Counted from the stretch's first letter, positions 29,677 to 54,488 are shown. The stretch is 64,000 nt of DNA from Candidatus Harrisonbacteria bacterium (GCA_016192685.1 JACPTS010000001.1:458628-522627), one strand, 5' to 3'. Notes: generated from the letters alone by a model not told the origin. Made by a program: numbers and translations.

Positions 29677-30756
29677 ATGAGAATAGATTTGGAAAAATTA
29701 AAAAAAGAGGCTTTGGGGCTGATTAGCGGCGTAAAAGACGCTAAAGCTTTGGAAGATTTGCGGATTAAGTATTTGGGGCGGACTAATGGCGAATTAACGA
29801 AACTGATGAAATCTTTGCCGAAAATGTCTTTGGCGGACCGGCGGAAATTTGGTCCGCTTTTGAATTCTTTAAAACGTGAATTGGAAGCGGCGCTGGAAAA
29901 TAAATTAGCGGCCCTCAAAGCTCAAAGCTCAAAGCTCAAAGCTAGTATTGATATTACTATGCCTGGCAAAAAAGTTTCACTTGGCCACCTTCACCCTTTG
30001 ACTATGGTAGAAAAAGAAATCCGGGAGATTTTTACCGCTCTTAATTTTTCGATAGTGGAAGGTCCGGAAGTGGAATCGGAATATTATAATTTTGACGCTT
30101 TAAATATTCCCAAAGACCATCCGGCGCGGGAGATGTGGGACACATTTTGGCTTCGCCAAAATGAACAATTAACTAATAACAAAAAACAATTAACAAAAAG
30201 TGAAAAGTTAAAAGTTAATAGTTCAAAGTTATTGCTTAGGACTCATACTTCGCCGGTGCAAATCCGTTATATGGAAACTCATCAGCCTCCGTTTCAGATT
30301 ATTGTTCCGGGCCGGGTATTCCGCTATGAAGCCACGGACGTTTCCCACGAAACTAATTTTCATCAAGTAGAGGGGTTGATGGTTGGGAAGGACATTAATT
30401 TGGCGAATTTTAAATTTGTAATTGGAGAGTTTTTTAAGCGTTTATTCAAAAAAAATGTTGTGATTCGGCTTCGGCCCAGCTATTTTCCTTTTGTGGAGCC
30501 GGGATTGGAAGTTGACGTGAAATGCGTTCGTTGCGGCGGAAAAGGTTGCGGCTTGTGTAAAGAATCCGGCTGGCTGGAAGTAATGGGCGCGGGCATGGTG
30601 CATCCCAAAGTTTTTGAGGCCGCCGGCTATAACCCGCGCGACTTTCGGGGATTTGCTTTTGGTTTGGGATTGGAGCGGATAGCCATGATTAAATATAATA
30701 TTCCGGATATCCGGCTGTTTTACTCCGGAGATTTGCGGTTTATTAAGCAATTTTAG
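29677..30756 (+). CDS. pheS: Phenylalanyl-tRNA synthetase alpha subunit
   Basis: Class II aaRS motifs (FRYEATDVSHETNFHQVEG, GFAFGLGLERIAM), C-terminal Zn Cys cluster; contains tandem-repeat insertions. Confidence 0.85.
   Translation: MRIDLEKLKKEALGLISGVKDAKALEDLRIKYLGRTNGELTKLMKSLPKMSLADRRKFGPLLNSLKRELEAALENKLAALKAQSSKLKASIDITMPGKKVSLGHLHPLTMVEKEIREIFTALNFSIVEGPEVESEYYNFDALNIPKDHPAREMWDTFWLRQNEQLTNNKKQLTKSEKLKVNSSKLLLRTHTSPVQIRYMETHQPPFQIIVPGRVFRYEATDVSHETNFHQVEGLMVGKDINLANFKFVIGEFFKRLFKKNVVIRLRPSYFPFVEPGLEVDVKCVRCGGKGCGLCKESGWLEVMGAGMVHPKVFEAAGYNPRDFRGFAFGLGLERIAMIKYNIPDIRLFYSGDLRFIKQF
29914..29943 (+). repeat. Tandem ctcaaag x4 within pheS
   Basis: ctcaaagctcaaagctcaaagctcaaagct coding LKAQSSKLKAS. 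Confidence 0.5.
30196..30230 (+). repeat. AAGTT-periodic in-frame insertion in pheS coding KSEKLKVNSSKLL
   Basis: aaaagtgaaaagttaaaagttaatagttcaaagtt. Confidence 0.5.
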
Positions 30757-30759
30757 AAT

Positions 30760-31143
30760 ATGGAAGGGAATTTTGAAAAAAATATAAAAAGAGAATTAAT
30801 CCAAGAACAGATTGATGCCGTTTTAAAAACTATCAGCGAATTTTCCGGCCTTAAAAAAGAAGCGGCTGATTTAAAAGAGAAAGGCGAGAAATATGACCCT
30901 CATTTTGATTCTATAGATCCCGCTGTTATTCAGGTAAAAGAGGCGGAACTATGGCAAAAGATGAAGATTATAGATTCAAAAGAAAAATACAATGATTTTG
31001 TGCAAGAATTAAGAGCGTACCGGAATGCGCTTCAGAAGGAATTAAGAGAAGCTGGCCAGGAAAGAGATACCAATCCGCACGCCGCTTTTGCCGCTTATTT
31101 AAGCAATAAAACAATGGGAGTGTATGAAAAATTAGAAGAATAA
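30760..31143 (+). CDS. Hypothetical protein
   Basis: 127 aa, charged and coiled-coil-like; lies between pheS and pheT. Confidence 0.35.
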   Translation: MEGNFEKNIKRELIQEQIDAVLKTISEFSGLKKEAADLKEKGEKYDPHFDSIDPAVIQVKEAELWQKMKIIDSKEKYNDFVQELRAYRNALQKELREAGQERDTNPHAAFAAYLSNKTMGVYEKLEE

Positions 31144-31150
31144 TAACGGT

Positions 31151-33100
31151 ATGAAATTCAGCTTTTCTTTAATTAAAAAATTAGTTCCCGGCCGATATAC
31201 CAAATCTGAACTGACGGAGAAATTAAATTTGCATTCTTTTGAAACGGCGGATTTGGGCGGCGATGTTTTGGAAATTGCCGTGACACCGAATCGTTTTTCC
31301 GATGCCGCTTCGCATTTGGGGATCGCCAGGGAAGCGGCCGCCATTTTTGGCATCCCATTAAAAGATCCTCTGGAAGAAAAATTAAAATATGGCCATAAAG
31401 ACCAGGGCGTGTTTCGGGTCAATGTTAAAGAAAAGAATTTATGCCGCCGGTATCTGGCGTCTTACGTGAGTAAGATAAAAGTTGGGCCGTCGCCAAAATG
31501 GCTGAAAGAAGTTCTGGAAACTTGCGGGCTTCGTTCCATTAATAATGTCGTGGATATTATGAATTACGTGATGCTGGAAATCGGCCAGCCGCTCCATGCG
31601 TTTGACGCGGATAAGGTTTCCGGCGGATTGGTGGCGCGCCGCGCCCAAAAAGGAGAAACGATTACTACCATTGATAATCAAAAATTTAATTTGGATTCGG
31701 AAGTGTTGGTGATTGCGGACGCGAAACAGCCGCTCGCCATTGCCGGCATTAAAGGCGGCAAATCCAGCGAAGTAACCAGCGGCACTAAACGGATTTTAGT
31801 GGAAGCCGCTCATTTTGAAAGCGCTAATATTTACAAAACTTCCCGTAAATTAGCCTTGCGAACCGATGCGTCGGTGCGTTTTTCCCATTTTTTAAGTCCG
31901 GAATTGCCGGAATTGGGAATGCGCCGGGCGCTCGCGCTTCTTCAAGAATTGGCTGCCGCCACTATTCATCCGCCGATAGATGTTTATGCTAAAAAAGCAG
32001 GATTGCGGCTGGTTCCTTTTAACCTTAAAAAAATGAGCGATTTAATCGGCGAACATTTTAAAGAAAAAGAAGTTTTGCAAGTTCTTTCCAATCTTGGTTT
32101 TAAAAAGAAAGGTAAAAGTTTGTCGGTGCCGGCGTTGAGGATGGATATTGATGGTTTAGAAGACATAGCGGAAGAAGTAGCGCGGATTAAGGGTTACAAT
32201 AATTTGCCTTCCCGGCCGCCAAGCATCGCTCTCGGAGCGGCTCAAGAAGAAGAACAAATTAATTTGAAGAACCGGCTGCGGAAGTTTTCGGCCGGCGTTG
32301 GTTTTAGCGAAGTTTATAATTATTCTTTTTTGGCGGAAAAGGAAGTCGGCAGCCGGGCCGTGGCTATTGCCAATCCTATTAGCAGCCAAGCCGGATTTTT
32401 GCGGGATAGTTTAAAAATGGGATTAAGGAAAAATTTGGAAAGCAATAAGCGATTTTTTGAGGAAGTCCGCGTTTTTGAAATTGGCAAGGTTTTTTCGGAA
32501 GAAAAGGGCAGGGTGGAGGAAAGATTAATGCTGGGAATGGGGATTTTGGCTAAAAATAGTTATTTAGAAATCAAAGGAGTTTTGGATTCTTTGCTGACCG
32601 GATTGGGCATTATTGAATATGAATTAATCGAGAAGAACCCCGCCCGTTTAGAAGTGAAATTGGAAAATTTGCTCGTTGGAAATTTAGATTTGATTTCGGA
32701 ATTAAAAAACGCGGCCGTTTTAGAATTGAATCTGGACCTTTTATTAAAAGAAATGGACGAAGAAAGGGAATTCGCGCCTTTACCGAAATTTCCGGTGATT
32801 ACCCGTGATCTTTCTATTTTTGTTCCGGAAGAAACGCGCGTGGGAGAAGTTTTAGAAATGATCCAGCGGGTTAGCGCTAAATTAGTGAATGACGTGGACT
32901 TGATTGACTTTTATGAGCCGGATGAAAAATTGCGGCCGAAACAAGACCGCAGCGAGACACAGGAAAAAAGGCGGAAAAGCTTGACTTTCCGGATTGTTTT
33001 TCAAGCCGAAGACCGTACTTTAACCGATGCGGAAGCGGATAGGGAAATGGCGGCCATTAATCAAATTTTGATTGATAAATTTGACGCGGAATTAAGGTAA
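31151..33100 (+). CDS. pheT: Phenylalanyl-tRNA synthetase beta subunit (compact form)
   Basis: B3/4 and B5 domain-like regions, 649 aa, positioned after pheS. Confidence 0.75.
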   Translation: MKFSFSLIKKLVPGRYTKSELTEKLNLHSFETADLGGDVLEIAVTPNRFSDAASHLGIAREAAAIFGIPLKDPLEEKLKYGHKDQGVFRVNVKEKNLCRRYLASYVSKIKVGPSPKWLKEVLETCGLRSINNVVDIMNYVMLEIGQPLHAFDADKVSGGLVARRAQKGETITTIDNQKFNLDSEVLVIADAKQPLAIAGIKGGKSSEVTSGTKRILVEAAHFESANIYKTSRKLALRTDASVRFSHFLSPELPELGMRRALALLQELAAATIHPPIDVYAKKAGLRLVPFNLKKMSDLIGEHFKEKEVLQVLSNLGFKKKGKSLSVPALRMDIDGLEDIAEEVARIKGYNNLPSRPPSIALGAAQEEEQINLKNRLRKFSAGVGFSEVYNYSFLAEKEVGSRAVAIANPISSQAGFLRDSLKMGLRKNLESNKRFFEEVRVFEIGKVFSEEKGRVEERLMLGMGILAKNSYLEIKGVLDSLLTGLGIIEYELIEKNPARLEVKLENLLVGNLDLISELKNAAVLELNLDLLLKEMDEEREFAPLPKFPVITRDLSIFVPEETRVGEVLEMIQRVSAKLVNDVDLIDFYEPDEKLRPKQDRSETQEKRRKSLTFRIVFQAEDRTLTDAEADREMAAINQILIDKFDAELR

Positions 33101-33179
33101 TTTTTTGTTTGATTTTAACTAGTAGATTTGCTATACTAATAAAGTAGAAATAGATATAAAAAGGCCGGGCCTTTTTTAA

Positions 33180-35129
<1,950 letters not shown>

Positions 35130-35132
35130 TTC

Positions 35133-35268
35133 GCTACCTATCTGTCTACCGGCACCGGCGTTCGCCGACTCCTGCGGTCGGCGCCGCCTACGCCTCGCCC
35201 CGATTTTTCGCCTTCGGCGAAACCTAGCAAATCGGGGCTCCGTAGTTGCCGTACGACAGACAGGTAGC
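35133..35268. repeat. GC-rich, highly palindromic intergenic element (~136 nt) with 14-bp terminal inverted repeats
   Basis: gctacctatctgtc ... gacagacaggtagc termini; internal hairpins ccccgattt..aaatcgggg and cgcc ttcg gcga; ~65% GC in an AT-rich genome. Confidence 0.6.
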
Positions 35269-35313
35269 TCACTCTGATTGACGGGGGGTGAATGAATTAG
35301 GTATAATATTAAA

Positions 35314-35502: not shown

Positions 35503-35506
35503 TTTA

Positions 35507-36076: not shown

Positions 36077-36088
36077 TAAATTAAAGTT

Positions 36089-37353: not shown

Positions 37354-38658
37354 ATGATAGCTAAATTACCGGTTCAAAAAATTGTTTCCGACCCGATTTT
37401 GGGGCTGATTGATATCAGCAAGGTTTTGCCGATGGTGGATGTCCGGGAATTCCAGTCGCTGGCTTATAAATATCAGCTTGGTTTGGCGTTTTTGCTTTTC
37501 CCTTCCGCCACTCACACCCGCAAACAGCATTGCTTGGGCGCTTACCAGCGGACTAAAGAATTAACCGGGCGCTGGGTGGAAAGCGGGATGATTACTAAAG
37601 ACCAGGCCCGGAATGTCAATGCTTACGCGCTTTATCATGATATCGGCCATGGTCCGTTTTCCCATACCGTGGAGCCGCTTTTTGACCTTTTACCCGGAGC
37701 AAAAAAATCAAAATTGCGCGCTGATGACGCCATGGGAATTGAGATAGCGCGAAATTTGAAAAAGGAGATTGAGGCGACCGGAGCCGAATTTGAATCTTTA
37801 ATGAAATTTATGAAACACGAAGACCCTTTGTACTTGGCAGTTCATGATAAGAATTTAGGAATGGAAAAATTTGATTATTTAACCAGAGACGCTTTTTACA
37901 CCATTAAAGAAATGCCGGGGGTGGATTATTTATCCCGCTATATCTATTTTGTGGATGGGCAAGTGGCGGTAGATGAGCGGGTGATTGACCAGGCAAAAGC
38001 AATCCAGGAATTTTATATAAAAATGTCCAAGCATGTTTATTTGCGCAAAAAATCCGCGATTTTACAGCGTTTAGTCCAAAAAATGGCTTACGAGCTGTTA
38101 AAAGAAGGGATGACGGTCGGGGAGATTTGGAAACTTACGGATTTTGGGCTTTTGGGAAGATTGGAAATTTCTCCCAACCCGCTTATCAGGAATTATTATG
38201 GTCGGCTGATGGCGGGTGATTTGCCGAAGATTGCCATTGAATTTAAGCAGGAGCAATTTGTTCAATTAGATGAAAAGCGGGGAGATAAGTCTTTGCACAC
38301 TTTTGGGCTGCCGGAGAAGGTTTTAAATAAAGTTCTTGCCCAAGAAGAGGTTTCCGGCATTAAATTTTTAGCTGATTTTGAAAAAGGAATTGCCGCGGCC
38401 GCCGGCATTCCGGAGGACAGCGTTATGGTGGTACCGCCGATGTCTCACCACCGTTTTGTTCCGGAAGACGTGAAAGTTTACGGCCGAGACGGCAGTATTG
38501 TTCTTCTTAGCGATTTTTACCCCAATCATTTTGCCGCTATGACTGAATACGGAAAATCCCATCATCTTTTGCGGATTTGCGCCTTTCCGGAGCATCGGGA
38601 TAATTTGGAAGCCAAAGCAGAGAAAATTAAGGATTATCTTTTGGAATTTTCAAAATGA
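37354..38658 (+). CDS. HD-domain phosphohydrolase (dGTPase-like)
   Basis: HD motif H...HDIGHGPFSH...D. Confidence 0.55.
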   Translation: MIAKLPVQKIVSDPILGLIDISKVLPMVDVREFQSLAYKYQLGLAFLLFPSATHTRKQHCLGAYQRTKELTGRWVESGMITKDQARNVNAYALYHDIGHGPFSHTVEPLFDLLPGAKKSKLRADDAMGIEIARNLKKEIEATGAEFESLMKFMKHEDPLYLAVHDKNLGMEKFDYLTRDAFYTIKEMPGVDYLSRYIYFVDGQVAVDERVIDQAKAIQEFYIKMSKHVYLRKKSAILQRLVQKMAYELLKEGMTVGEIWKLTDFGLLGRLEISPNPLIRNYYGRLMAGDLPKIAIEFKQEQFVQLDEKRGDKSLHTFGLPEKVLNKVLAQEEVSGIKFLADFEKGIAAAAGIPEDSVMVVPPMSHHRFVPEDVKVYGRDGSIVLLSDFYPNHFAAMTEYGKSHHLLRICAFPEHRDNLEAKAEKIKDYLLEFSK

Positions 38659-40172
38659 AATATATGCCAACAATTGGTTTAGAGATTCATTCGGAGCTTA
38701 AAACAGCAACGAAAATGTTTTGTGATTGTCCGAACGACCCGGATGAGAAGCACCCCAATACCAATGTCTGCCCGATTTGCTTGGGACATCCGGGAGTTTT
38801 ACCGACCATTAATAAAAAAGCCGTAGAGTCAATTATTAAAATTGGTTTCACGGTTAGCGGGAAAATTAATGAAAATTTTAAATTTGACCGGAAAAATTAT
38901 TTTTATCCGGATTTGCCGAAAGGTTACCAGATTTCCCAATATGATTTGCCGATTGTGAAAGGCGGCAGTCTGGATATTTCCGATAGACTGGGAATGACTA
39001 AAATTGTTTATTTAGATAGAGTGCATTTAGAAGAAGACGCCGCGAGGCTAGTACACGGCGGTAGCCCTTCGACAAGGGCTTCGACTGAGCTCAGCCGAAT
39101 GTCCTCAGGGCAACAAGCTTCGCTTGTTGATTTTAATCGTGGCGGTGTTCCGCTGATGGAGTTAGTTACCGAACCCAATATGCATACAGCCGAAGAAGCG
39201 GTAGCTTTTGCCAAAGAATTACAGTTGATTTTGCGGTATTTGGAAGTTTCGGACGCGGATTTGGAAAGAGGCCAGATGAGATTTGACGCGAATATTAGTT
39301 TGACGAACGATCAACAACCAACGACTAACGACAAGTTAGGGACTAAAGTTGAAATCAAGAATTTAAATTCTTTTGCGGCATTGGAACAAGCAATTCAACA
39401 CGAAATAGAGCGCCAAACCGAAGTTTTAGAAAGCAGTAAGTTTGTAAAGCAAGAAACTCGCGGCTGGGATGACGTAAAAAAGAAAACTGTCAGCCAGCGG
39501 TCAAAAGAAGAAGCCCATGATTACCGTTATTTCCCGGAACCGGATTTGCCGCCGCTGGAAGCTTCGGCTTTTGATTTAGCGAGTTTGAAACTAGCTGTTC
39601 CGGAATTGCCCAAAGAAAAAAGGCAGCGTTTTAAAGAACAGCTTGGCTTAAATTTTGAGCAGGCCGATCTTTTGGCGGAAGATCGCCAAGCCGCCGCTTA
39701 TTTTGAAGAAGCGATTTCGGAATTAGAGGCAGACAGCGGTTTATCAGCCGGCAAAGAAAAAATCCAGCTGGCATTTAATTATTTAACCAGTGATCTCCGC
39801 GGTTTGATGAAAGAATACGAATTAAGCTTTGAAAGCTTAAAAATTACTCCGGAGAACTTTGGGGATTTAATTGAGATGATTTCTAAAAAAGAAATTTCCA
39901 GCCGCACCGCCAAAGATTTATTAGTGAAGATGCTGGAGGGCGTAGACCCCCGAACACTGGTAGAAAATGAAGGACTGGCTCAAGTATCGGAGGAAAGCGC
40001 CTTATTAGAAACCATTAAAAAGGTTATTTCGGAAAATCCGGCGGCAGTTGCGGATTATAAAAAAGGAAAATCCAACGCCTTGCAGTTTTTAGTTGGCAAA
40101 GCAATGGCGGAACTTGGGGGCAGAGGGAACCCATCGGTTTTAAAATCCTTATTTGAAAAAGAATTGGAGTGA
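38655..40172 (+). CDS. gatB: Asp/Glu-tRNA amidotransferase subunit B
   Basis: GatB N-terminal CxxC, HLEEDA motif, C-terminal GatB_Yqey region; contains a GC-rich in-frame insertion. Confidence 0.85.
   Translation: MKYMPTIGLEIHSELKTATKMFCDCPNDPDEKHPNTNVCPICLGHPGVLPTINKKAVESIIKIGFTVSGKINENFKFDRKNYFYPDLPKGYQISQYDLPIVKGGSLDISDRLGMTKIVYLDRVHLEEDAARLVHGGSPSTRASTELSRMSSGQQASLVDFNRGGVPLMELVTEPNMHTAEEAVAFAKELQLILRYLEVSDADLERGQMRFDANISLTNDQQPTTNDKLGTKVEIKNLNSFAALEQAIQHEIERQTEVLESSKFVKQETRGWDDVKKKTVSQRSKEEAHDYRYFPEPDLPPLEASAFDLASLKLAVPELPKEKRQRFKEQLGLNFEQADLLAEDRQAAAYFEEAISELEADSGLSAGKEKIQLAFNYLTSDLRGLMKEYELSFESLKITPENFGDLIEMISKKEISSRTAKDLLVKMLEGVDPRTLVENEGLAQVSEESALLETIKKVISENPAAVADYKKGKSNALQFLVGKAMAELGGRGNPSVLKSLFEKELE
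39035..39130 (+). repeat. GC-rich palindromic element inserted in-frame in gatB
   Basis: Hairpins agccctt cgac aagggct, ctgagctcag and caacaagc ttcg cttgttg directly after the HLEEDA motif; shares the 9-mer ccgcgaggc with the ligA element. Confidence 0.45.
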
Positions 40173-47516: not shown

Positions 47517-47681
47517 ATGGGTGGCGTACCAGTAAAACATCGTTCTAAGTCCGCGGTTGGACATACTCGTTCTCATCAGGCCTTGAAAAAGGTGCCGGTT
47601 TTAGTTTGTTCCAATTGTAGGGCGCCAGTTTTGCCGCACCGAATTTGTCCCAATTGCAAGCAATATCGAAAAAGCGACTAG
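47517..47681 (+). CDS. rpmF: 50S ribosomal protein L32
   Basis: 54 aa MGGVPVKHRSKSAVGHTRSHQALKK...CSNC...CPNC zinc ribbon; not in the ORF track. Confidence 0.8.
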   Translation: MGGVPVKHRSKSAVGHTRSHQALKKVPVLVCSNCRAPVLPHRICPNCKQYRKSD

Positions 47682-47748
47682 TGTTTAGCGACTAGCGACT
47701 AGTAAATTTTAAATAAATACTAGTGGCTAGTGGCTAGTGGCTAGTCCA
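47674..47748 (+). repeat. CTAG-dense inverted tandem repeats forming a long hairpin (3x gcgactag / 3x ctagtggc)
   Basis: 7 CTAG tetramers in 75 nt; arms are complementary with G-U wobbles; AT-rich loop; located between rpmF and nusB. Confidence 0.5.
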
Positions 47749-47755
47749 CTAATGA

Positions 47756-48211: not shown

Positions 48212-48897
48212 ATTCAGACAAATTAGAAAATTTAATTTCTTACGATTTTAAAAATAAGGACCTTTTAAAAGAAGCGCTGACTCACCGTTCTTATTTAAAT
48301 GAAAATCCGAAATGGCCGTTGCCGCATAACGAACGGCTGGAATTTTTGGGCGATGCCGTCTTGGAATTGGCGATTACCGAATCTTTATATGAGCAATTTC
48401 CAAAAGAAAGCGAGGGGAAATTAACTACTTTGCGGGCGGCGCTTGTCAATTATCAGATGTTAGCCGGTTTATCCAAGCAGATTAGTCTGGAGAAATTTTT
48501 GCTGATGTCACGAGGGGAGGCCAAAGACACCGGCCGGGCGCGGGAAGTGATTTTGGCTAACGCGATGGAAGCGCTAATCGGAGCGATTTATTTGGATGCG
48601 GATTTTAAACAAGTAAAAAGTTTTGTTTTGAAATTCATTTTTCCGGAAATTAAAGAAGTGCTTCAAAAAGGCCTTGACCGCGACCCTAAAAGCTTGCTTC
48701 AGGAATGGTCGCAGGCAAATTTAAAAATAACCCCGCTTTACAAGCTGATCAGCGAGAAAGGGCCGGATCATAAGAAAGTTTTTACGGTGGCGGTTTATTT
48801 TGGTAAAGAAGAAATAGCGCGAGGCGAAGGAATGTCTAAGCAGGACGCGGAAGTGGAAGCCGCTAAAAAAGCACTTGCAATCAAAGCAATTTTATAG
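48208..48897 (+). CDS. rnc: Ribonuclease III
   Basis: Signature [12 protein letters not shown]-terminal dsRBD. Confidence 0.9.
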
Positions 48898-48936
48898 TTT
48901 TATTTAAGTAGTCTTTGCTCTTAGAAAATTGAATAA

Positions 48937-50739
48937 GTGAATCGTACTTCAATGGGATTGATTTTATGGGTTGGCGTTTTTCTGCTGTTATTTAATTTTT
49001 CCAATGCCTTGAGAAAAATTGATCAGCCGGAAAAGGTGTCGGCATCGGAAATCAAAACTCATTTTCTTTCTGGTAAAGTTAAAGGTGTTGTTTTTGAGAT
49101 TGAAACTTTGAATGTCCAATGGGAGGAGCCTGCCAATAATCCGCCGGCAATTAAAAAATTTATTGCTCGAGCTGCCGGACAAGGCCATTTTAATGAATTA
49201 GTGGCTTTAGCCGAAAAAGAGAAAATTCCTTTTGATCCGGCTCCGCCGCCAAATTATTTTTGGCAGTCTTTGCTTAGCAATCTTTTGTGGGTGGTATTGC
49301 TGGTTGTTTTCTGGATTTGGATGATGAAAAAACAAACCGAACAAGTATCCGGCCGAGGAGGGCCGTTCGGTTTCGGCCAATCAAAGGCAAAGTTAATTGC
49401 GCAGAAGGCAGAAAAAACTTTTGCCGATGTGGCAGGCTGTGAAGAAGCTAAGGAAGAAATTAAAGAAATTGTTGATTTTTTAAAAAACCCGTCCGGTTTT
49501 GCTCGTTTAGGAGCCAGGATTCCCAAGGGAGTGCTTTTATACGGCCTTCCGGGAACCGGAAAAACTCTTTTAGCTAAGGCGGTTGCCGGAGAAGCCGGAG
49601 TTCCGTTTTTATCAACTAACGGCTCAAAATTCATTGAAATGTTTGTCGGCGTCGGCGCTTCCAGGGTAAGGGATTTATTTGAAAGCGCGAGAAAATTAGC
49701 TCCTTGCGTGGTGTTTATTGATGAAATTGACGCGGTGGGCAAAAAAAGAGGTTTTGCCATTGGCGGCGGCCATGACGAAAGAGAGCAAACCCTGGATGCT
49801 TTATTGGAAGAATTAGACGGTTTTGATAAAAATTGCGGCATTGTGGTGATGGCGGCGACTAACCGGCCGGATATTCTAGACGAAGCTTTGGTTCGGCCAG
49901 GGAGATTTGACCGCCAAATTATGGTTCCCAAACCGGAATTAACCGGCAGAGAAATGATTTTAAAAATTCACGCCAGAAATGCCGTCCTTGGTCCGGAGGT
50001 TAATTTATTGGAAGTTGCCAAAGATACGGCCGGAATGGTTGGCGCGGACTTGGAAAACGTTGTTAATGAGGCGGTATTGATCGCCACCAGAAAAAAGAAA
50101 GATTATGTTGAGCAGTCGGATTTCAGCGAGGCCGTGGATAAAGTATCCATGGGTCCGGCAAGAAAATCGGTAAAACTTACCGAAAAAGAAAAACAGCGCA
50201 CTGCTTATCACGAAGCCGGCCATACTTTGGCGGCTATGCTTACTGAAGGAGCGGACCCGGTCCACAAAGTCACGATTATACCGCGCGGTCCGGCGCTGGG
50301 TTTTACCAAGCAGTTGCCGGAAGACAGGCATTCTATTACCAAAAAGGAGTTAGAAGCAATGGTGGCGGTTTGCGTTGCCGGACGGGCCGCGGAAGAAGTG
50401 AAATTCGGAGAAATTACCACTGGCCACTCCAATGATTTTGAGAAGGCCACGCTTCTTTTAAAGAAAATGATTTATGAACTTGGCATGGATGAGGAAACGG
50501 GTATGGCGGTTTATAAAGAGAAAGCTGATTTTTGGGGAAATCCCACCGGCCTGGACGCTTCTCAAAAAACTAAGGAGCTTTTAGAAAGGGCAGTAAAAAC
50601 AAAATTAGCTAAGATTTATAATGATGTTAAAGAACTTTTGGTAAGAGAAGTGAATAAGCTTGATAAGTTAGCCGGCCAGCTTATGGAAAAAGAAACATTG
50701 GATGCCAATGAAATTCGGGCTATTATAAATTCCTCCTAA
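48937..50739 (+). CDS. ftsH: ATP-dependent zinc metalloprotease FtsH
   Basis: AAA Walker A GPPGTGKT, second region of homology (SRH), HEAGH zinc site, 2 N-terminal TM segments. Confidence 0.9.
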   Translation: MNRTSMGLILWVGVFLLLFNFSNALRKIDQPEKVSASEIKTHFLSGKVKGVVFEIETLNVQWEEPANNPPAIKKFIARAAGQGHFNELVALAEKEKIPFDPAPPPNYFWQSLLSNLLWVVLLVVFWIWMMKKQTEQVSGRGGPFGFGQSKAKLIAQKAEKTFADVAGCEEAKEEIKEIVDFLKNPSGFARLGARIPKGVLLYGLPGTGKTLLAKAVAGEAGVPFLSTNGSKFIEMFVGVGASRVRDLFESARKLAPCVVFIDEIDAVGKKRGFAIGGGHDEREQTLDALLEELDGFDKNCGIVVMAATNRPDILDEALVRPGRFDRQIMVPKPELTGREMILKIHARNAVLGPEVNLLEVAKDTAGMVGADLENVVNEAVLIATRKKKDYVEQSDFSEAVDKVSMGPARKSVKLTEKEKQRTAYHEAGHTLAAMLTEGADPVHKVTIIPRGPALGFTKQLPEDRHSITKKELEAMVAVCVAGRAAEEVKFGEITTGHSNDFEKATLLLKKMIYELGMDEETGMAVYKEKADFWGNPTGLDASQKTKELLERAVKTKLAKIYNDVKELLVREVNKLDKLAGQLMEKETLDANEIRAIINSS

Positions 50740-50767
50740 CGGAGGAATTTTTGTTATAATAAATCCG

Positions 50768-52945
50768 ATGTATCTTAAACATTTGGAATTGATAGGTTTT
50801 AAATCTTTTGCCCCTAAAACCATTTTGGATTTTCCGGCGGGCATTATCGGAATCGTCGGTCCCAACGGCAGCGGCAAAAGCAATATTATTGACGCAGTTC
50901 GCTGGATTTTAGGCGAACGGGAAGCCAAGAATCTTCGCGGCGGAAAAGCCGAAGATTTAATTTTTGCCGGCACTCCCAAGAGGCCGCGGATGGGCATGGC
51001 GCAGGTGACGCTTACTTTTGATAATGCCTCCGGATTTTTCCCGGTGGATTACAAAGAAGTTTCTATTCAACGCCGGATTGAGCGGGACGGTAATTCCCAT
51101 TATTTTTTGAATAAAGCTGAAGTCCGCTTGCGGGATATTATTGATTTTTTCGCGAAAGTCCGGCTCGGCACCCGCGGGCTTTCTATCATTAACCAGGGTT
51201 CCAGCGATTTATTTGTCCGGGCTGCTCCGGAAGAGCGGCGGGCGATGATTGAAGAAATTTTAGGTTTGCGGCAATACCAATTAAAAAAGCATGAAGCTGA
51301 CCGGAAATTAAAAAACACCCGGATTAACATTGAAAAAGTGCGGGCGATGATTGAGGAGGTGGCGCCCCACCTTAGGTTTTTAAAGCGGCAGACCGCCAAA
51401 TGGGGAAAGCTTTCCGATTTGGAAAAAGAAATAAAAGACCTGGAAAATATTTATTTTGCCCATAAATTGAAAGAAATTCGGGAGGGCGTTGAGAGATTGG
51501 ATCCCCAGATTAAAAAATTAGACAGCGAAATCGGCGGCAAACAAAATCAACTGCGGGTTTTGAAAATGGTCGTGGAAAAAATTGAAGCCGGAAAGCCGGG
51601 AAAAAATTCCGGCGGTGAATTGCGGAAAAAGCGGGAAGTTTTGCTCCAGGAACGTTCGGAGATTGAAAGGGAAGTCGGCAAATTGGAAGCGAAAATTGAA
51701 TTTTTGAATTCGGTAGCGGCCAGCGAAAATTTAGACCTGCGCTCCGGCGAACTTTTAACGGTTTTGGAAGAAGTAAAAGACAGTCTGGAAAAGCTGATGC
51801 AAGAAAAGAATTTAGAAAAGGTTCATTCGGATTTGCGGGCGCTGCTGGAGAAAGTGGCCGGCGTTACTGACCGGTCTTCAAAAAAGAAAAACGAAATTGC
51901 TGATTTAAAATCAGTCAAAGATGCTTTGTTAAAAAAGCTGGTTCCGATCCGGGACGAACTATCCGCTTTAACCTCTAAGGAAGAAGCCTCGGCAAAAGAA
52001 TTTGAAGAGTTTAACGACCAATTCCGCGGCGCTTTTGAAAAAATGGAAATTAAGAAAGAAGAAATTTCCGGATTAGACAAAGAAAAAAATAAGCTGCTTT
52101 TTGATTTAGAGCGATTTAATCTTAGAAAACAGGATTTGGAAATGCAGATAAATCAGATTGGCAGAAAGTTGGACGAGTTTATAAGTCCAATAAGTCCTAT
52201 AGGTCTTATAGACGATTTACCGGCGCTGGAAAGGAAGATGCTTAGGCTTCGTTCGGAAATCGCCGGGATTGGGGAGGTGGACCAGGCTTTAATTAAAGAG
52301 GCCGAGGAAACCGAAACCCGCCATAATTTTTTGGCTGGCCAGCTGGCGGATTTGGAAAAAGCGGCCACCGACCTGGAACAGCTGATTCAAGAGTTGGAAG
52401 AAAAAATTGATAATGAATTCCAGCAATCTTTCAGGAAAATCAATACGGAATTTGATAAATTTTTTAATTTGATGTTCGGCGGCGGCAAAGCGAAATTGGT
52501 TTTAGAAAAGCCTGAGCCGAAAGTCCAGGCGGCGGTGGAGGGGGTAACGGATCCGGAAATGAAAGAGCATCGGAAGGAAACCGAAGATTTGGAAACCGAG
52601 GAATTAAAGCAAACCGGAATTGAAATTGATTTAAGCTTGCCGCGGAAACGGATTCATGGATTGGATATGCTCTCCGGCGGCGAAAAAAGTTTGGTTTCCA
52701 TTGCGGCCCTTTTTGCCTTGATTTCGGTCAGCCCGCCGCCGTTTTTGGTACTGGATGAAGTGGACGCGGCTTTGGATGAAAAAAATACCAAGCGGTTTGC
52801 CGATATTGTCCGGGATTTTTCAAAAAAAACCCAGTTTTTAATTGTCACCCATAACCGCGCCACCATGGAAGCCGCTAATATTCTTTACGGCGTCACGATG
52901 GAAGAAGACGGAGTATCTAAAGTTTTATCATTAAAGCTTGAATAG
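50768..52945 (+). CDS. smc: SMC-family chromosome partition ATPase (short, 725 aa)
   Basis: N-terminal Walker A GPNGSGKSN, C-terminal signature LSGGEKSL and Walker B LVLDEVDAALD; coiled-coil middle, shorter than canonical SMC. Confidence 0.6.
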   Translation: MYLKHLELIGFKSFAPKTILDFPAGIIGIVGPNGSGKSNIIDAVRWILGEREAKNLRGGKAEDLIFAGTPKRPRMGMAQVTLTFDNASGFFPVDYKEVSIQRRIERDGNSHYFLNKAEVRLRDIIDFFAKVRLGTRGLSIINQGSSDLFVRAAPEERRAMIEEILGLRQYQLKKHEADRKLKNTRINIEKVRAMIEEVAPHLRFLKRQTAKWGKLSDLEKEIKDLENIYFAHKLKEIREGVERLDPQIKKLDSEIGGKQNQLRVLKMVVEKIEAGKPGKNSGGELRKKREVLLQERSEIEREVGKLEAKIEFLNSVAASENLDLRSGELLTVLEEVKDSLEKLMQEKNLEKVHSDLRALLEKVAGVTDRSSKKKNEIADLKSVKDALLKKLVPIRDELSALTSKEEASAKEFEEFNDQFRGAFEKMEIKKEEISGLDKEKNKLLFDLERFNLRKQDLEMQINQIGRKLDEFISPISPIGLIDDLPALERKMLRLRSEIAGIGEVDQALIKEAEETETRHNFLAGQLADLEKAATDLEQLIQELEEKIDNEFQQSFRKINTEFDKFFNLMFGGGKAKLVLEKPEPKVQAAVEGVTDPEMKEHRKETEDLETEELKQTGIEIDLSLPRKRIHGLDMLSGGEKSLVSIAALFALISVSPPPFLVLDEVDAALDEKNTKRFADIVRDFSKKTQFLIVTHNRATMEAANILYGVTMEEDGVSKVLSLKLE

Positions 52946-52994
52946 AGGATGCTTGACACTAAAAGCTAAAACCTATAAGCTAAAAGCTACTTTT

Positions 52995-53333
52995 ATGTTA
53001 ATGATTCGTCTCCAGCGCCGAGGGAAAAAGCACCAAGCGGCTTATCGCGTGGTGGTCGGCGAGAAAAGATCTAAATTGCTCGGCAAGCAGACCGATGATT
53101 TGGGCTGGTATGATCCGCATTCTGCCAAATTGGATTTGAATAAAGACCGCCTTCAACACTGGCTTTCCGCGGGAGCCAAAATGAGTGATACCGTGAATAA
53201 TCTTTTAGTTAGTGCTGGTATGGTTCCGGGTAAAAAAATTGCAGTTCATAAAAAAGCGCAAATTTCCGGCGGCCAAAAATCTGAAGCAGCTCCAGCAGTT
53301 GCTGAAACTCCAAAAACTGAAACGTCAAAATAG
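52995..53333 (+). CDS. rpsP: 30S ribosomal protein S16 with Lys/Ala-rich C-terminal extension
   Basis: MLMIRLQRRGKKHQAAYRVVV S16 N-terminus; ORF track start 52938 is probably too far upstream. Confidence 0.75.
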   Translation: MLMIRLQRRGKKHQAAYRVVVGEKRSKLLGKQTDDLGWYDPHSAKLDLNKDRLQHWLSAGAKMSDTVNNLLVSAGMVPGKKIAVHKKAQISGGQKSEAAPAVAETPKTETSK

Positions 53334-53336
53334 GAT

Positions 53337-53365
53337 TTGACAAATATTTTATTATCTGATATATT
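53337..53365 (+). promoter_or_regulatory. Candidate sigma70 promoter (TTGACA, 17 nt, TATATT)
   Basis: Upstream of the KH-domain gene. Confidence 0.3.
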
Positions 53366-53414
53366 ATTATAAATTAGCTCAAAGGTCGGTAAAGGTAAGT
53401 AAATAAAATCAAGA

Positions 53415-53747
53415 ATGTTCGGAAAAGCTAAAGATAAAGATATGGCACAGAAACCACATGATCAGGAATTTCTGGAATATCTCGTCAAGTCTATTGTTGA
53501 GAATCCAGATAAAGTAGAAGTTGACCGTAAGGTAGACGAAATGGGAGTTCTGCTTTCTTTGAAAGTGGACCCGAAAGATATGGGTCTGGTTGTCGGAAGA
53601 CAAGGTTCCACGGCCAAGGCCATCCGCTCGCTTTTGAGAATCGTCGGCGTTCGGAATAACGCCCGCGTTAATCTCAAGATTGAAGAGCCGGAAGGTTCTA
53701 CCCGCGGTCCGCGCATGGAGCGCGGAGACAGAGATATGAATCTCTAA
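53415..53747 (+). CDS. KH-domain RNA-binding protein (YlqC/UPF0109-like)
   Basis: GxxG-containing KH fold VGRQGSTAKAIRSLLR; sits in the rpsP-KH-trmD conserved neighbourhood. Confidence 0.65.
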   Translation: MFGKAKDKDMAQKPHDQEFLEYLVKSIVENPDKVEVDRKVDEMGVLLSLKVDPKDMGLVVGRQGSTAKAIRSLLRIVGVRNNARVNLKIEEPEGSTRGPRMERGDRDMNL

Positions 53748-53759
53748 AAGTATTTCGCT

Positions 53760-53784
53760 AAAATCCCCCAAAGCGGGGGATTTT
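53760..53784 (+). terminator. Intrinsic terminator
   Basis: aaaatccccc aaag cgggggatttt. Confidence 0.6.
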
Positions 53785-53828
53785 AGTTTATAATAAGTCT
53801 TATAGACTTATCGGACTTATTTAATTTT

Positions 53829-54488
53829 ATGCGTTTTGATATAATAACAATTTTCCCGAAAATTTTAGATTCTTATTTCAGCGAATCACTTTTAAAAAAA
53901 GCCCAAGATAAGGGTTTAATTAAAATTCAAATTCATAATCTTAGAGATTTCACCGGCGATAAACATCATAAGGTTGACGATACGCCGTATGGCGGCGGGC
54001 CTGGGATGGTATTAAAAGCTGAACCGGTTTATAAGGCGGTTCAAGCTATAAAGTTAAAAGTTAAAAGTTCTAAGTTAAAAGTTAGGACAATTTTATTGTC
54101 CTTGCGCGGCAAAAAGTTTGACCAGAAAGAAGCGCATCGTTTGGCAAAATACGGCCAATTGGTTTTTATTTGCGGCCGTTATGAGGGCGTGGATGAGCGG
54201 GTGGCAAAATATGTGGCGGATGAGGAGCTGTCAATCGGTGATTATGTGCTTTCCGGCGGCGAATTGCCGGCTGCGATTGTGATTGAAGCAGTGAGCCGGC
54301 TTATTCCCGGCATGCTTGGAAAATCCGAGTCTTTGGAGGAGCGCAAGGGAACTTATCCGGTTTATACCAAGCCGGAAAGAATAGAGTTGAAAGTGAAAAG
54401 TGGAAAGTTAAAAGTATTTAAAGTTCCGCCAATTTTGTTATCCGGAGACCATAAAAAAATTGAAGAATGGAGGGAGAAAAATTCTTAG
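53829..54488 (+). CDS. trmD: tRNA (guanine37-N1)-methyltransferase
   Basis: MRFDIITIFP N-terminus, SPOUT knot region GRYEGVDERV; carries two AAGTT-repeat insertions. Confidence 0.85.
   Translation: MRFDIITIFPKILDSYFSESLLKKAQDKGLIKIQIHNLRDFTGDKHHKVDDTPYGGGPGMVLKAEPVYKAVQAIKLKVKSSKLKVRTILLSLRGKKFDQKEAHRLAKYGQLVFICGRYEGVDERVAKYVADEELSIGDYVLSGGELPAAIVIEAVSRLIPGMLGKSESLEERKGTYPVYTKPERIELKVKSGKLKVFKVPPILLSGDHKKIEEWREKNS
54051..54083 (+). repeat. AAGTT-periodic in-frame insertion in trmD coding KLKVKSSKLKV
   Basis: aagttaaaagttaaaagttctaagttaaaagtt. Confidence 0.5.
54386..54425 (+). repeat. Second AAGTT-periodic insertion in trmD coding ELKVKSGKLKVFKV
   Basis: gttgaaagtgaaaagtggaaagttaaaagtatttaaagtt. 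Confidence 0.5.

What the first reader, a model, noticed from the sequence alone, without database searches (positions are those of the whole stretch)
29914..54425. Family of AAGTT-periodic in-frame insertions (SSKLKVKS-like peptides) in essential genes
Short A/T-rich periodic repeats of the form aagttaaaagtt... occur inside pheS (30196-30230, plus ctcaaag x4 at 29914-29943), trmD (54051-54083 and 54386-54425) and ligA (19549-19577 and 20861-20907). Each is in-frame and codes related peptides (KSSKLKVRT, KSGKLKVFKV, NSSKLLLRT, ESSKLEVKSQKL, VPSSKFQVPRK). They sit at positions where orthologs normally have no sequence, inferred from the compact conserved motifs on either side. This resembles the in-frame spread of Rickettsia palindromic elements but with a non-palindromic, periodic unit. 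It could be a new class of intragenic mobile or slippage-generated repeat, or a lineage-specific surface-loop tag.
Basis: seen in the sequence. Interest (0 to 1): 0.75.

Follow-up and report, generated by a model that had tools for sequence, protein, structure and literature searches.

The report
Heptanucleotide repeats inside essential genes
Short runs of a 7-base unit repeated four to five times sit in frame inside loops and linkers of housekeeping genes (ligA, pheS, trmD, gatB) of a Candidatus Harrisonbacteria genome; they belong to a known repeat class (heptanucleotide simple-sequence repeats) and grew in place rather than arriving as a mobile element, and they show how a non-triplet repeat can add new peptide loops to essential enzymes.

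Summary
All six cited segments are at the stated coordinates, are in frame, and encode the stated peptides. The repeat period is 7 nt, with units AAAGTTA, CTCAAAG and GTTCCAA.

Period-7 arrays are the dominant tandem-repeat class. This holds in the window (5 strict arrays against 0 in shuffles) and in 269 kb of related Patescibacteria DNA (33 arrays against 0-4 for any other period except 14).

Codon choice follows the 7-nt register far beyond what the peptides require, so the periodicity was created in the DNA.

Alignments with relatives show the sites are hypervariable hot spots, not ancestral sequence. At ligA site 1 the insert is exactly 21 nt, three copies of the local GTTCCAA (Val-Pro-Lys codons). 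At trmD site 1, orthologous 33-nt arrays carry a different unit in every copy in different lineages, which indicates concerted evolution.

Two of the six sites (pheS site 1, ligA site 2) are not net insertions. There the array overwrites an existing linker.

The arrays are not palindromic, have no conserved ends, and are not RPE- or MITE-like.

Best reading: heptanucleotide simple-sequence repeats generated in place by slippage and template switching, then filtered by selection for frame, absence of stop codons, hydrophilic sense strand and permissive loops. The class is known; I found no earlier report of in-frame copies in essential genes of these bacteria. Interest is moderate.

The parts
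18918..21113 (+). ligA (NAD-dependent DNA ligase), host gene of two arrays
   Evidence: Pfam DNA_ligase_aden, OB, HhH and BRCT domains. 100% identical to a Candidatus Harrisonbacteria LigA.
19539..19567 (+). ligA site 1: (GTTCCAA)x4.1, encoding VPSSKFQ-VP. A 21-nt (three-unit) in-frame expansion of the local Val-Pro-Lys/Arg codons.
   Evidence: TRF gives 90% matches. The short-form relative L209 reads AAA GTC CCG AAG; the window has an extra GTT CCA AGT TCC AAG TTT CAA before GTT CCA AGA AAG. Among 120 relatives the segment is 18 aa in 6 and 25 aa in 68.
20861..20897 (+). ligA site 2: degenerate AAAGTTA-type array (ESSKLEVKSQKL) in the HhH-BRCT linker. It adds no net length.
   Evidence: TRF period 14. 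Segment length is the same in nearly all of 58 relatives (+3 aa in two), whether or not they are periodic there. L211 has (ATTATCA)x4 at the same place and the same length. Codon resampling gives 91/20000.
29677..30756 (+). pheS (phenylalanyl-tRNA synthetase alpha), host gene of two arrays
   Evidence: Pfam tRNA-synt_2d and Phe_tRNA-synt_N.
29914..29943 (+). pheS site 1: perfect (CTCAAAG)x4.3, encoding LKAQSSKLKA, at the end of the N-terminal coiled-coil helix. Not a net insertion.
   Evidence: TRF gives 100% matches. Alignment to 4p71 shows no extra length. Relatives carry LQAASHKLQA, LKVQSSKLKV, LKTQNSKLKT or non-periodic sequence. The array uses the rare CTC Leu codon twice. Codon resampling gives 0/20000. 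AF2 places it at the end of helix 52-85.
30163..30231 (+). pheS site 2: AACAAAA/AAAAGTT arrays encoding QLTNNKK-QLTKSEK-LKVNSSK-L. About a 20-residue insertion just before the conserved LLRTHTSP block.
   Evidence: TRF arrays 30178-30199 and 30196-30231. Query residues 163-182 have no counterpart in 4p71. Relatives range from no insert (KPESQRLLLRTH) to 40 or more residues. AF2 pLDDT is below 50 here.
38655..40172 (+). gatB, host gene of one weaker array
   Evidence: Pfam GatB_N and GatB_Yqey.
39302..39332 (+). gatB array (GACNAAC-type, x4.4, 75% matches), encoding LTNDQQPTTND. +4 aa against T. maritima GatB.
   Evidence: TRF. PDB 3al0 alignment. Codon resampling gives 294/20000, which is weak.
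53829..54488 (+). trmD (tRNA m1G37 methyltransferase), host gene of two arrays
   Evidence: Pfam tRNA_m1G_MT. 100% identical to a Candidatus Harrisonbacteria TrmD.
54050..54084 (+). trmD site 1: (AAAGTTA)x5, encoding KLKVKSSKLKV. The in-frame TAA of the perfect repeat is replaced by TCT.
   Evidence: TRF. +5 aa against 8byh. Orthologous 33-nt arrays with the same boundaries have units AAAGCTA, AAAGTCA or AAATCCA in other lineages. AF2 places it at the end of helix 64-77, a loop and the start of strand 85.
54385..54425 (+). trmD site 2: AAAGTGA/AAAGTTA array, encoding ELKVKSGKLKVFKV. It runs into the ancestral AAA GTT CCG (Lys-Val-Pro).
   Evidence: TRF. The basal form in most bacteria and many CPR relatives is 11 residues; here it is 20. 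AF2 predicts a beta-hairpin, strands 184-188 and 194-198.
52959..52989 (+). Non-coding member: (CTAAAAG)x4.4 between smc and rpsP, directly upstream of the S16 start (MLMIRL).
   Evidence: TRF and sequence. A near-identical array lies upstream of rpsB in relative L088.
47673..47745 (+). Non-coding members: (AGCGACT)x4.3 at and after the end of rpmF, and (CTAGTGG)x3.7 just upstream of nusB.
   Evidence: TRF and sequence. Both units contain TAG, which is only tolerable outside coding frames.
55726..55746 (+). (GATATAA)x3 spanning the tsf stop codon.
   Evidence: TRF and sequence. Relative L086 has (GTCAAAT)x5 in the equivalent spacer after tsf.
4477..4506 (+). Weak (CATAATT)x4.3 array inside the prepilin peptidase gene (PIIPNSLFIIQ).
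   Evidence: TRF gives 73% matches. Pfam Peptidase_A24. Not examined further.

Best explanation
These are heptanucleotide simple-sequence repeats of the same general class as cyanobacterial STRRs and the heptamer repeats of Xanthomonas, Beggiatoaceae and Geobacter. They arise and turn over in place in this Patescibacteria lineage. Some survive inside essential genes.

**Step 1 (shown for ligA site 1, inferred elsewhere).** A local 7-nt motif is amplified in tandem by slipped-strand or template-switch replication errors.

**Step 2 (shown statistically).** Selection removes most coding copies. What survives has a net length divisible by 3 (for example +21 nt, which is 3 units or 7 codons), has lost the in-frame stop of the perfect repeat, has the A-rich strand as sense strand (Lys/Ser/Leu/Val peptides), and lies in permissive loops, hairpins or inter-domain linkers.

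**Step 3 (shown by comparison, mechanism inferred).** Arrays are homogenised and replaced over time. This happens within an array, and probably between arrays of one genome. As a result, orthologous sites carry different units in different lineages, while arrays within one genome resemble each other.

Because 7 and 3 are coprime, every frame of a given unit yields the same cyclic heptapeptide. For T[A/C]AAAG[T/C] this is L-K-(V/A)-(K/Q)-S-(stop/S)-K. That is why unrelated genes show 'related' peptides.

The peptides themselves most likely have no conserved function. They are tolerated surface additions.
For: **Created in the DNA.** Codon choice tracks the 7-nt register: 0-91 of 20,000 synonymous resamples reach the observed periodicity at the six sites.

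**Genome-wide property.**
- Period-7 arrays: 33 in 269 kb of labelled Patescibacteria loci, against 0-4 for periods 4-13 and 15 (period 14 gives 11).
- Density is 12.3 per 100 kb, against 2.6 in labelled non-CPR loci and 7.8 in the window.
- Contigs holding one (AAAGTTA)n array hold 112 further heptamer arrays with 75 different units.

**Origin in place.**
- The ligA site 1 insert is (GTTCCAA)x3, copied from the adjacent Val-Pro codons.
- Relatives have (ATTNAAA)x3 next to ATT CCC, or GTCCAAA GCCCAAA GTTAAAA next to GTT CCG. The short form lacks exactly 21 nt.
- Insert residue 1 equals residue 8 in 20 of 68 relatives, against 7.2 expected and a maximum of 14 in 2,000 shuffles.

**Turnover.**
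- trmD site 1 arrays share 33-nt boundaries but have units AAAGTTA, AAAGCTA, AAAGTCA or AAATCCA in every copy.
- Both trmD sites, both pheS sites and ligA site 1 vary from absent to long among relatives of 63-84% identity.

**Selection filter.**
- 19 of 53 arrays lie outside long ORFs, although only 10.6% of bases do (p = 1e-6).
- The sense strand has A>T in 30 of 33 coding arrays (p = 1.4e-6).
- The would-be TAA codon is TCT, TCA, AAA, AAA, CAA or CCA in six orthologous arrays.
- Non-coding (AAAGTTA)n arrays reach 181 nt, while coding arrays stay near 30-35 nt.

**Structure.** trmD site 2 is predicted as a beta-hairpin, and site 1 as a helix end plus loop.

**Literature.** Heptanucleotide repeats are the most abundant long simple-sequence-repeat class in many bacteria, and polymerase slippage with a footprint of about 7 nt has been proposed (PMC4692102 and PMC4679880, citing Mrazek et al. 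2007).
Against: - A one-step +3-unit expansion from a seed of about one unit is not classical slippage. It needs reiterative copying or unobserved intermediates.
- Pure local slippage does not explain why one unit family, AAAG(T/C)TA, which contains a stop codon, dominates. It accounts for 6-7 of about 12 arrays in the window.
- Nearly identical arrays with the same CTATAAG variant occur at three unrelated places: window rpsP upstream, L088 rpsB upstream and L011 trmD site 2.
- Arrays at the two trmD sites of one genome are more alike than shuffled pairs (69 against 57.1, 57 of 5,000 shuffles). This test does not control for phylogeny.
- These three points hint at copying between sites or a templated source.
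- No within-population length polymorphism could be examined. Five independent assemblies are identical to the window.
- The 7-nt preference itself remains unexplained.
Confidence: 0.7

Rival explanations
1. A dedicated, sequence-specific 'writing' or copying process creates the arrays. Candidates are a reverse-transcriptase or telomerase-like enzyme, an RNA-mediated small mobile repeat (as proposed for cyanobacterial SDR elements), or template switching to a master array. This process deposits AAAG(T/C)TA-type arrays at hot spots. Local slippage only modifies them afterwards.
For: - One unit family dominates within a genome and recurs at many sites and in more than 120 metagenome contigs.
- The same CTATAAG-variant array occurs at three unrelated sites.
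- Arrays at the two trmD sites of one genome resemble each other.
- In relatives, GC-rich hairpin mini-inserts sit exactly at unit boundaries inside the arrays. This is the arrangement described for SDR elements embedded in heptameric repeats of Nostoc (Elhai et al. 2008, recalled from memory; the paper is not held).
- Lineage-specific favoured heptamers without an evident mechanism are reported in Beggiatoaceae (PMC4679880).
Against: - ligA site 1 units are copied from the local codons and differ by lineage.
- 75 different units co-occur in array-bearing contigs.
- Orthologous arrays change unit in concert.
- No candidate enzyme or template was identified in the window.
Confidence: 0.13
2. 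A miniature mobile element (RPE- or MITE-like) has inserted in frame into many genes.
For: The segments are in frame, in loops of essential genes, and encode related peptides in different genes. In relatives, composite structures occur with arrays flanking a GC-rich hairpin.
Against: - No inverted repeats or palindrome in the arrays.
- No conserved termini or target-site duplication.
- Length and unit vary continuously.
- Orthologous sites carry different units.
- Two of the six sites show no net insertion.
- The ligA insert derives from adjacent sequence.
- The larger GC-rich inserts in ligA and gatB have no second copy in the window or in the roughly 1.3 Mb of related and metagenome loci held at the time.
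Confidence: 0.05
3. Protein-level selection for a Lys-rich amphipathic beta-hairpin or nucleic-acid-binding 'tag' created the similar peptides. The DNA periodicity would then be a by-product.
For: The host proteins all bind tRNA or DNA. The peptides are Lys-rich with alternating polar and hydrophobic residues. trmD site 2 is predicted as a beta-hairpin.
Against: - Synonymous positions follow the 7-nt register, including rare CTC Leu codons.
- The same repeat class occurs in non-coding DNA.
- Close relatives lack the segments or carry unrelated sequence, including the hydrophobic IIINYQLSIIN in L211 LigA.
Confidence: 0.04
4. Chance low-complexity sequence or conserved ancestral sequence.
For: The regions are A-rich, Lys-rich loops where low-complexity sequence is common.
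Against: Shuffle controls, the specificity to period 7, and ortholog alignments.
Confidence: 0.01

Closest known systems
Long heptanucleotide simple-sequence repeats of prokaryotes (Mrazek, Guo & Shah 2007, as summarised in PMC4692102 and PMC4679880)
   Same: Tandem 7-nt units. Period 7 is over-represented against neighbouring periods. Many different units occur per genome. The repeats are enriched in intergenic DNA. Polymerase slippage is the proposed origin.
   Different: In that work, units whose length is a multiple of three were the ones most likely to be found in coding regions. Here 34 of 53 arrays lie inside long ORFs, several in essential genes. These are kept in frame by a total length divisible by 3 and by loss of the stop codon.
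Cyanobacterial STRR heptamers (Mazel et al. 1990; Calothrix/Nostoc; cited in PMC4692102) and GGGNATC repeats of Xanthomonas/Nostoc (PMC4692102)
   Same: Tandem heptamers with a typical copy number near four. Length and sequence vary between close relatives at the same locus. Some units are favoured in a lineage.
   Different: [quoted passage not shown] The arrays here are A-rich, cannot form G4 structures, and are translated.
TAACTGA direct repeats of marine Beggiatoaceae, cyanobacteria and Bacteroidetes (PMC4679880)
   Same: [quoted passage not shown] The repeats often lie directly upstream of start codons, as with the rpsP and rpsB arrays here. Translation gives a cyclic heptapeptide with a stop in one orientation.
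   Different: The TAACTGA repeats are mainly intergenic and a translational-regulation role has been proposed for them. Here the emphasis is on in-frame copies inside conserved enzymes.
Four- to five-unit heptanucleotide elements of Geobacter metallireducens (PMC2700814)
   Same: Arrays of four to five tandem heptamers found both between and within genes at dozens of sites.
   Different: The Geobacter units are GC-rich (GGGACCG and MTYCTGA) and were interpreted as regulatory RNA or binding sites. Comparative turnover and in-frame behaviour were not analysed there.
Rickettsia palindromic elements (RPE; Ogata et al. 2000, from my own knowledge)
   Same: In-frame extra peptide segments in surface regions of essential proteins, compatible with function.
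   Different: RPEs are palindromic elements of about 100-150 bp with a conserved sequence. The arrays here are about 30 nt, non-palindromic, variable in unit, and locally derived.
Tandem repeats of Borg elements that create disordered protein regions (PMC9879509)
   Same: Rapidly evolving, independently arising tandem repeats that add new peptide segments to proteins.
   Different: As I recall that paper's detail, which I did not check here, Borg coding repeats have unit lengths divisible by three. Here the unit is 7 nt, so only three-unit steps or compensated changes preserve the frame.
Small dispersed repeats (SDR) nested in heptameric repeats of Nostoc (Elhai et al. 2008; recalled, paper not held; cited in PMC3116915)
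   Same: In relatives (L087, L088), GC-rich hairpin mini-inserts of 27-75 nt lie at unit boundaries inside heptamer arrays.
   Different: This arrangement is not present in the window's own arrays. No sequence relation to the SDR families was tested. Here the composites are translated.

Membership tests
Heptanucleotide simple-sequence repeats (STRR-like) | Head-to-tail tandem copies of a 7-nt unit | tested here: met
   TRF finds period 7, 3-5 copies and 73-100% matches at 13 places. An independent scan agrees.
Heptanucleotide simple-sequence repeats (STRR-like) | Period 7 over-represented against other periods in the same genomes, with many different units | tested here: met
   Window: 5 arrays against 0-1 for other periods. 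Patescibacteria loci: 33 arrays against 0-4, with period 14 at 11. 75 units occur in array-bearing metagenome contigs.
Heptanucleotide simple-sequence repeats (STRR-like) | Copy number or sequence varies between related genomes at the same locus | tested here: met
   trmD, pheS and ligA alignments and DNA comparisons.
Heptanucleotide simple-sequence repeats (STRR-like) | Copy-number polymorphism within a population or strain (active slippage) | not testable with these tools
   Only assemblies are available, and five of them are identical to the window. Read-level data are needed.
Heptanucleotide simple-sequence repeats (STRR-like) | Enrichment in non-coding DNA | tested here: met
   19 of 53 arrays lie outside long ORFs, against 10.6% of bases (p = 1e-6).
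Rickettsia palindromic elements / in-frame palindromic MITEs | Palindromic (hairpin-forming) element with conserved sequence at all insertion sites | tested here: not met
   The units are direct repeats. The reverse complement (AACTTTT...) is absent from the arrays, with 0-1 hits on the - strand. Units differ between sites and lineages.
Rickettsia palindromic elements / in-frame palindromic MITEs | In-frame insertion at protein surface positions | tested here: inconclusive
   In frame at all sites. Four of the six sites are net insertions. The AF2 models have moderate or low confidence at the sites.
MITE / transposon-derived element | Terminal inverted repeats and target-site duplication | tested here: not met
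   None is seen in the flanks of arrays in the window or in about 200 arrays from other loci.
Phase-variation (contingency) loci | A repeat tract whose unit-number changes switch a dispensable gene on and off | tested here: not met
   The hosts are housekeeping genes. The arrays are interrupted by variant units, and every allele seen in relatives is in frame.
Borg-type coding tandem repeats | Unit length divisible by three | tested here: not met
   The unit is 7 nt. Frame is kept through 21-nt steps or a total length divisible by 3.
SDR-like mini-elements nested in heptamer arrays | Small hairpin-forming insert embedded within a tandem heptamer array | tested here: inconclusive
   Seen in relatives L087 and L088 but not in the window's arrays. 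Homology to the published SDR families was not tested.

The most novel reading that the evidence does not exclude
Patescibacteria, and perhaps other heptamer-rich lineages, may possess a specific heptamer-generating or heptamer-copying mechanism rather than generic polymerase slippage. It would deposit and homogenise arrays of a lineage-favoured unit (here AAAG(T/C)TA) at recurrent hot spots, including inside essential genes. These arrays would in turn serve as landing pads for GC-rich hairpin mini-elements. The system would act as a continuous source of new surface loops in a highly reduced proteome.
Probability: 0.15. Interest if true: 0.75.

Novelty: new member of a known kind. Interest (0 to 1): 0.42.

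Why it matters
**Birth of peptide loops.** This is a natural example of how peptide loops arise in essential enzymes from a repeat whose unit is not a multiple of three. The 7/3 arithmetic makes any reading frame give the same heptapeptide. The only frame-safe step is 21 nt (7 codons), and ligA shows exactly such a step copied from its own codons.

**A way to test the heptamer question.** Orthologous arrays in trmD, pheS and ligA across hundreds of Patescibacteria genomes form a comparative series. It could be used to measure rates of array birth, homogenisation and decay. It could also test the unexplained preference of bacterial genomes for heptanucleotide repeats.

**Practical consequences.** These segments distort alignments and phylogenies of marker genes in these bacteria. 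They also explain part of the lineage-specific 'insertions' seen in their proteins.

Tried and rejected
- **Strain-level polymorphism.** Five Logan contigs encoding the identical TrmD are 100% identical to the window, so they give no information on copy-number variation.
- **Genome-contig scan with the TrmD alignment.** It was useful for the period census but not for close comparison. Close relatives were fetched one by one instead.
- **Promoter reading of the rpsP-upstream array.** TTGACA-15 nt-TATAAG is also seen upstream of rpsB in L088. The consensus scan found no promoter, because the spacer is outside its 16-18 nt range. This remains an unconfirmed aside.
- **Dispersed-element test for the large GC-rich inserts.** BLAST of the ligA and gatB inserts against the window and all loci held at the time found no second copy.
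- **'SAKGG...SGGK' hairpin peptide.** Seen in relatives, but absent from the window's coding frames.
- **Elhai et al. 2008 paper.** Two look-ups failed, so the SDR comparison rests on memory.
- **AF2 model of PheS.** Confidence is too low at site 2 to establish surface exposure.
- **Literature search.** Searches combining CPR/Patescibacteria with simple-sequence repeats found nothing relevant in the held library. This is not proof of absence.


Full report
**Source and genes.** The window comes from a Candidatus Harrisonbacteria genome (Patescibacteria/CPR). Its TrmD and LigA are 100% identical to proteins with that label on a 608-kb contig. Pfam confirms ligA (18918-21113), pheS (29677-30756), gatB (38655-40172), rpsP, trmD (53829-54488), rpsB and tsf.

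**Observation.** The period is 7 nt.
- trmD site 1: (AAAGTTA)x5.
- trmD site 2: AAAGTGA/AAAGTTA units.
- pheS site 1: a perfect (CTCAAAG)x4.3.
- pheS site 2: (AAAAGTT)x5.1.
- ligA site 1: (GTTCCAA)x4.1.
- ligA site 2: a degenerate AAAGTTA-type array.

This is not chance. A strict scan finds 5 period-7 arrays against 0 in 20 codon-block shuffles, and 0-1 for every other period from 4 to 15. AAGTNNAAAGT occurs 11 times on the + strand against 0.5 expected.

- gatB (39302-39332);
- upstream of rpsP (52959-52989);
- between rpmF and nusB (47673-47745);
- across the tsf stop codon (55726-55746);
- a weak array in the prepilin peptidase gene (4477-4506).

**The periodicity was created in the DNA.** I re-encoded each peptide 20,000 times with the window's own codon usage. 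The observed 7-nt identity was reached in 0 (trmD site 1), 25 (trmD site 2), 0 (pheS site 1), 0 (pheS site 2), 2 (ligA site 1) and 91 (ligA site 2) resamples. pheS site 1 uses the rare CTC Leu codon twice, as the repeat dictates.

The peptide resemblance follows from arithmetic. Because 7 and 3 are coprime, all three frames of a heptamer repeat encode the same cyclic heptapeptide. For T[A/C]AAAG[T/C] this is L-K-(V/A)-(K/Q)-S-(stop/S)-K. A perfect AAAGTTA array has an in-frame TAA once per 21 nt, and that codon is the one altered:
- TCT in trmD site 1, GGA in trmD site 2, CAG in ligA site 2;
- TCA, AAA, AAA, CAA and CCA in five orthologous arrays.

**Insertions or not.**
- Against solved structures, trmD has +5 and +4 residues at its two sites. 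Against the basal 11-residue form, site 2 has +9.
- pheS site 2 is an insertion of about 20 residues, but pheS site 1 adds no length.
- ligA site 1 is +4 residues against E. coli LigA, and ligA site 2 adds none.
- Among 120 LigA relatives the site 1 segment is 18 residues in 6 and 25 in 68, a step of 7 residues.
- ligA site 2 has the same length in nearly all of 58 relatives (+3 aa in two), whether or not it is periodic.

So four of the six sites are net insertions. At the other two, the repeat overwrites an existing coiled-coil end or inter-domain linker.

**Hypervariability.** Alignments of 35 TrmD relatives (68-84% identity) and 36 PheS relatives (63-81% identity) show that each site ranges widely:
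- no extra sequence (for example KLGGKNRKVPPV);
- heptamer-encoded peptides of various types (KLKAKSSKLKA, KVKSQKSKV, KTKNSKLKT, LQAASHKLQA);
- much longer composites.

These segments are not ancestral conserved sequence.

**Origin in place.** DNA of LigA relatives gives the clearest case.
- The short form (L209) reads AAG TTG AAA GTC CCG AAG AAA.
- The window has 21 extra nucleotides, GTT CCA AGT TCC AAG TTT CAA, directly before GTT CCA AGA AAG. This is three copies of the local GTTCCAA that encodes the conserved Val-Pro-Lys/Arg.
- L211 has ATTGAAA ATTTAAA ATTTAAA before ATT CCC.
- L210 has GTCCAAA GCCCAAA GTTAAAA before GTT CCG.

In each case the inserted units echo that lineage's own flanking codons. 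At protein level, insert residue 1 equals residue 8 in 20 of 68 long forms, against 7.2 expected and a maximum of 14 in 2,000 shuffles.

**Concerted turnover.** At trmD site 1, six lineages share the same 33-nt boundaries but differ in the unit in every copy: AAAGTTA (window), AAAGCTA (L086), AAAGTNA (L006, L011), AAAGTCA (L085) and AAATCCA (L009). More distant genomes have GAATCAG, AACAAGA, AAAAGCG or AAGACGC arrays at the same spot. In L211, ligA site 2 is (ATTATCA)x4 at unchanged length.

Arrays at the two trmD sites of one genome are more alike than shuffled pairs: 69 against 57.1 ± 4.8, reached in 57 of 5,000 shuffles. This test does not control for phylogeny. It suggests exchange between arrays.

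**A genome-wide repeat class.**
- In 269 kb of labelled Patescibacteria loci there are 33 period-7 arrays, against 0-4 for periods 4-13 and 15. Period 14 gives 11.
- Density is 12.3 per 100 kb, against 2.6 in labelled non-CPR loci and 7.8 in the window.
The arrays there are 19-181 nt long and mostly outside ORFs.
- The same contigs carry 112 further heptamer arrays with 75 different units, against 3-24 arrays for other periods (period 14 gives 33).

**Selection filter.**
- 19 of 53 arrays lie outside long ORFs, although only 10.6% of bases do (p = 1e-6).
- The sense strand has A>T in 30 of 33 coding arrays (p = 1.4e-6).
- Non-coding arrays freely contain stop triplets (CTAGTGG, AGCGACT, CTAAAAG).
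- Coding arrays stay near 30-35 nt.

**Structure.** The AF2 model of TrmD (mean pLDDT 74) places site 1 at the end of helix 64-77, the following loop and the start of strand 85. It places site 2 in a beta-hairpin formed by strands 184-188 and 194-198. The PheS model puts site 1 at the end of the long helix 52-85. It has pLDDT below 50 at site 2, so surface exposure there is only suggested.

**Comparison with what is known.**
- Over-representation of heptanucleotide repeats among long bacterial simple-sequence repeats, and the proposal that a polymerase footprint of about 7 nt favours slippage, are described in PMC4692102 and PMC4679880 (citing Mrazek et al. 2007).
- Those papers also describe GGGNATC repeats of Xanthomonas and Nostoc with a preference for four units, and TAACTGA repeats that often lie directly upstream of start codons.
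- Four- to five-unit heptamer elements within and between genes are reported in Geobacter (PMC2700814).

The arrays here meet the tested defining features of that class. They fail those of RPEs and MITEs (no palindrome, no conserved ends, no constant sequence), of contingency loci, and of Borg-type triplet-compatible repeats.

**What seems undocumented.** In the library I could search, I found no report of three things:
- the in-frame persistence of such arrays in essential genes of Patescibacteria;
- the 21-nt step;
- the orthologous-site series with concerted unit change.

**Unresolved.**
- Why 7 nt is favoured.
- Why a stop-containing unit family, AAAG(T/C)TA, dominates.
- Why near-identical arrays with the same CTATAAG variant occur at three unrelated sites (window rpsP upstream, L088 rpsB upstream, L011 trmD site 2).

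These points keep a templated or copying mechanism alive as a minority reading. In two relatives, GC-rich hairpin mini-inserts of 27-75 nt sit exactly at unit boundaries inside the arrays. This recalls SDR elements nested in heptameric repeats of Nostoc (Elhai et al. 2008, from memory).

**Verdict.**
- This is a new member of a known repeat kind.
- Interest is moderate (0.42).

Noticed in passing
window 19230-19385 (ligA residues ~105-156): A GC-rich, hairpin-containing in-frame insertion of about 45 residues (GRTITKRGDASSPKPPQPRG...RVEERGSPSAP) lies just upstream of the adenylation KxDG motif. Homologous versions occur patchily in a few relatives (P0247, P0250, P0251, P0284, P0295). Most relatives lack it. 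No second copy was found in the window or fetched loci.
   Followed up: partly
window 39072-39104 (gatB residues ~140-150): An 11-residue in-frame insertion relative to T. maritima GatB. It is made of small perfect hairpins (AGCCCTTCGACAAGGGCT; TTCGACTGAGCTCAGCCGAA). This is a different kind of insert from the heptamer arrays.
   Followed up: partly
L087:117-884 (TrmD P0040) and L088:3373-4098 (TrmD P0029); PheS P0137/P0145; LigA P0285/P0294: GC-rich hairpin mini-inserts of 27-75 nt (for example TCCGCCAAAGGCGGA, giving 'SAKGG...SGGK' peptides) are nested at unit boundaries inside heptamer arrays. They recur in different genes of different relatives, which suggests a small dispersed element that targets or tolerates the arrays.
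   Followed up: partly
L057 TrmD site 1 (locus ~3200-3360): The same trmD hot spot carries a peptide 'VIPAQAGIQ...MDPRIRKDD'. From memory, this looks like the translation of a widespread palindromic repeat element. The loop appears to accept several kinds of insert.
   Followed up: no
window 52953-52995 and L088:4112-4156: The (CTAAAAG)n array upstream of rpsP is preceded by TTGACA and contains TATAAG 15 nt downstream. An almost identical arrangement (TTGACT-15 nt-TATAAG) lies upstream of rpsB in a relative. It may be a promoter built from a heptamer array. The consensus scan did not call it.
   Followed up: partly
window 47519-47683: A small ORF encodes ribosomal protein L32 (MGGVPVKHRSKS...CPNCKQYRKSD; my own translation and identification from the sequence, not run through a tool). 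It is too short for the ORF list used. The AGCGACT array starts in its last codons.
   Followed up: no
window ~26112-26434 (+): A tRNA gene with a CAU anticodon (GCGGGGTAGAGCAG...GGCTCAT|AA) is interrupted in the anticodon loop by a group I intron (Rfam Intron_gpI, 62 bits, 26134-26344). ARAGORN did not call the split tRNA.
   Followed up: partly
window ~57500-64000: A probable integrated mobile element. tRNA-Trp (57552-57623) is overlapped by a large serine recombinase gene (57593-59077, -). This is followed by a Rep (REP_ORF2-G2P) gene, a drop in G+C to 0.30-0.37, and a LOOT RNA match (61074-61190, 85 bits). Two independent Logan contigs end at window position 57023.
   Followed up: partly
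L211:668-1351: A Y1 (IS200/IS605 or RAYT-type) transposase gene lies immediately upstream of ligA in a relative. It may be relevant to the GC-rich hairpin inserts.
   Followed up: no
L058:3734-3790 and L084:3729-3790: Chloroflexota/Anaerolinea loci carry GACCTTC-type heptamer arrays just downstream of trmD. Heptamer arrays near this gene are therefore not confined to Patescibacteria.
   Followed up: no
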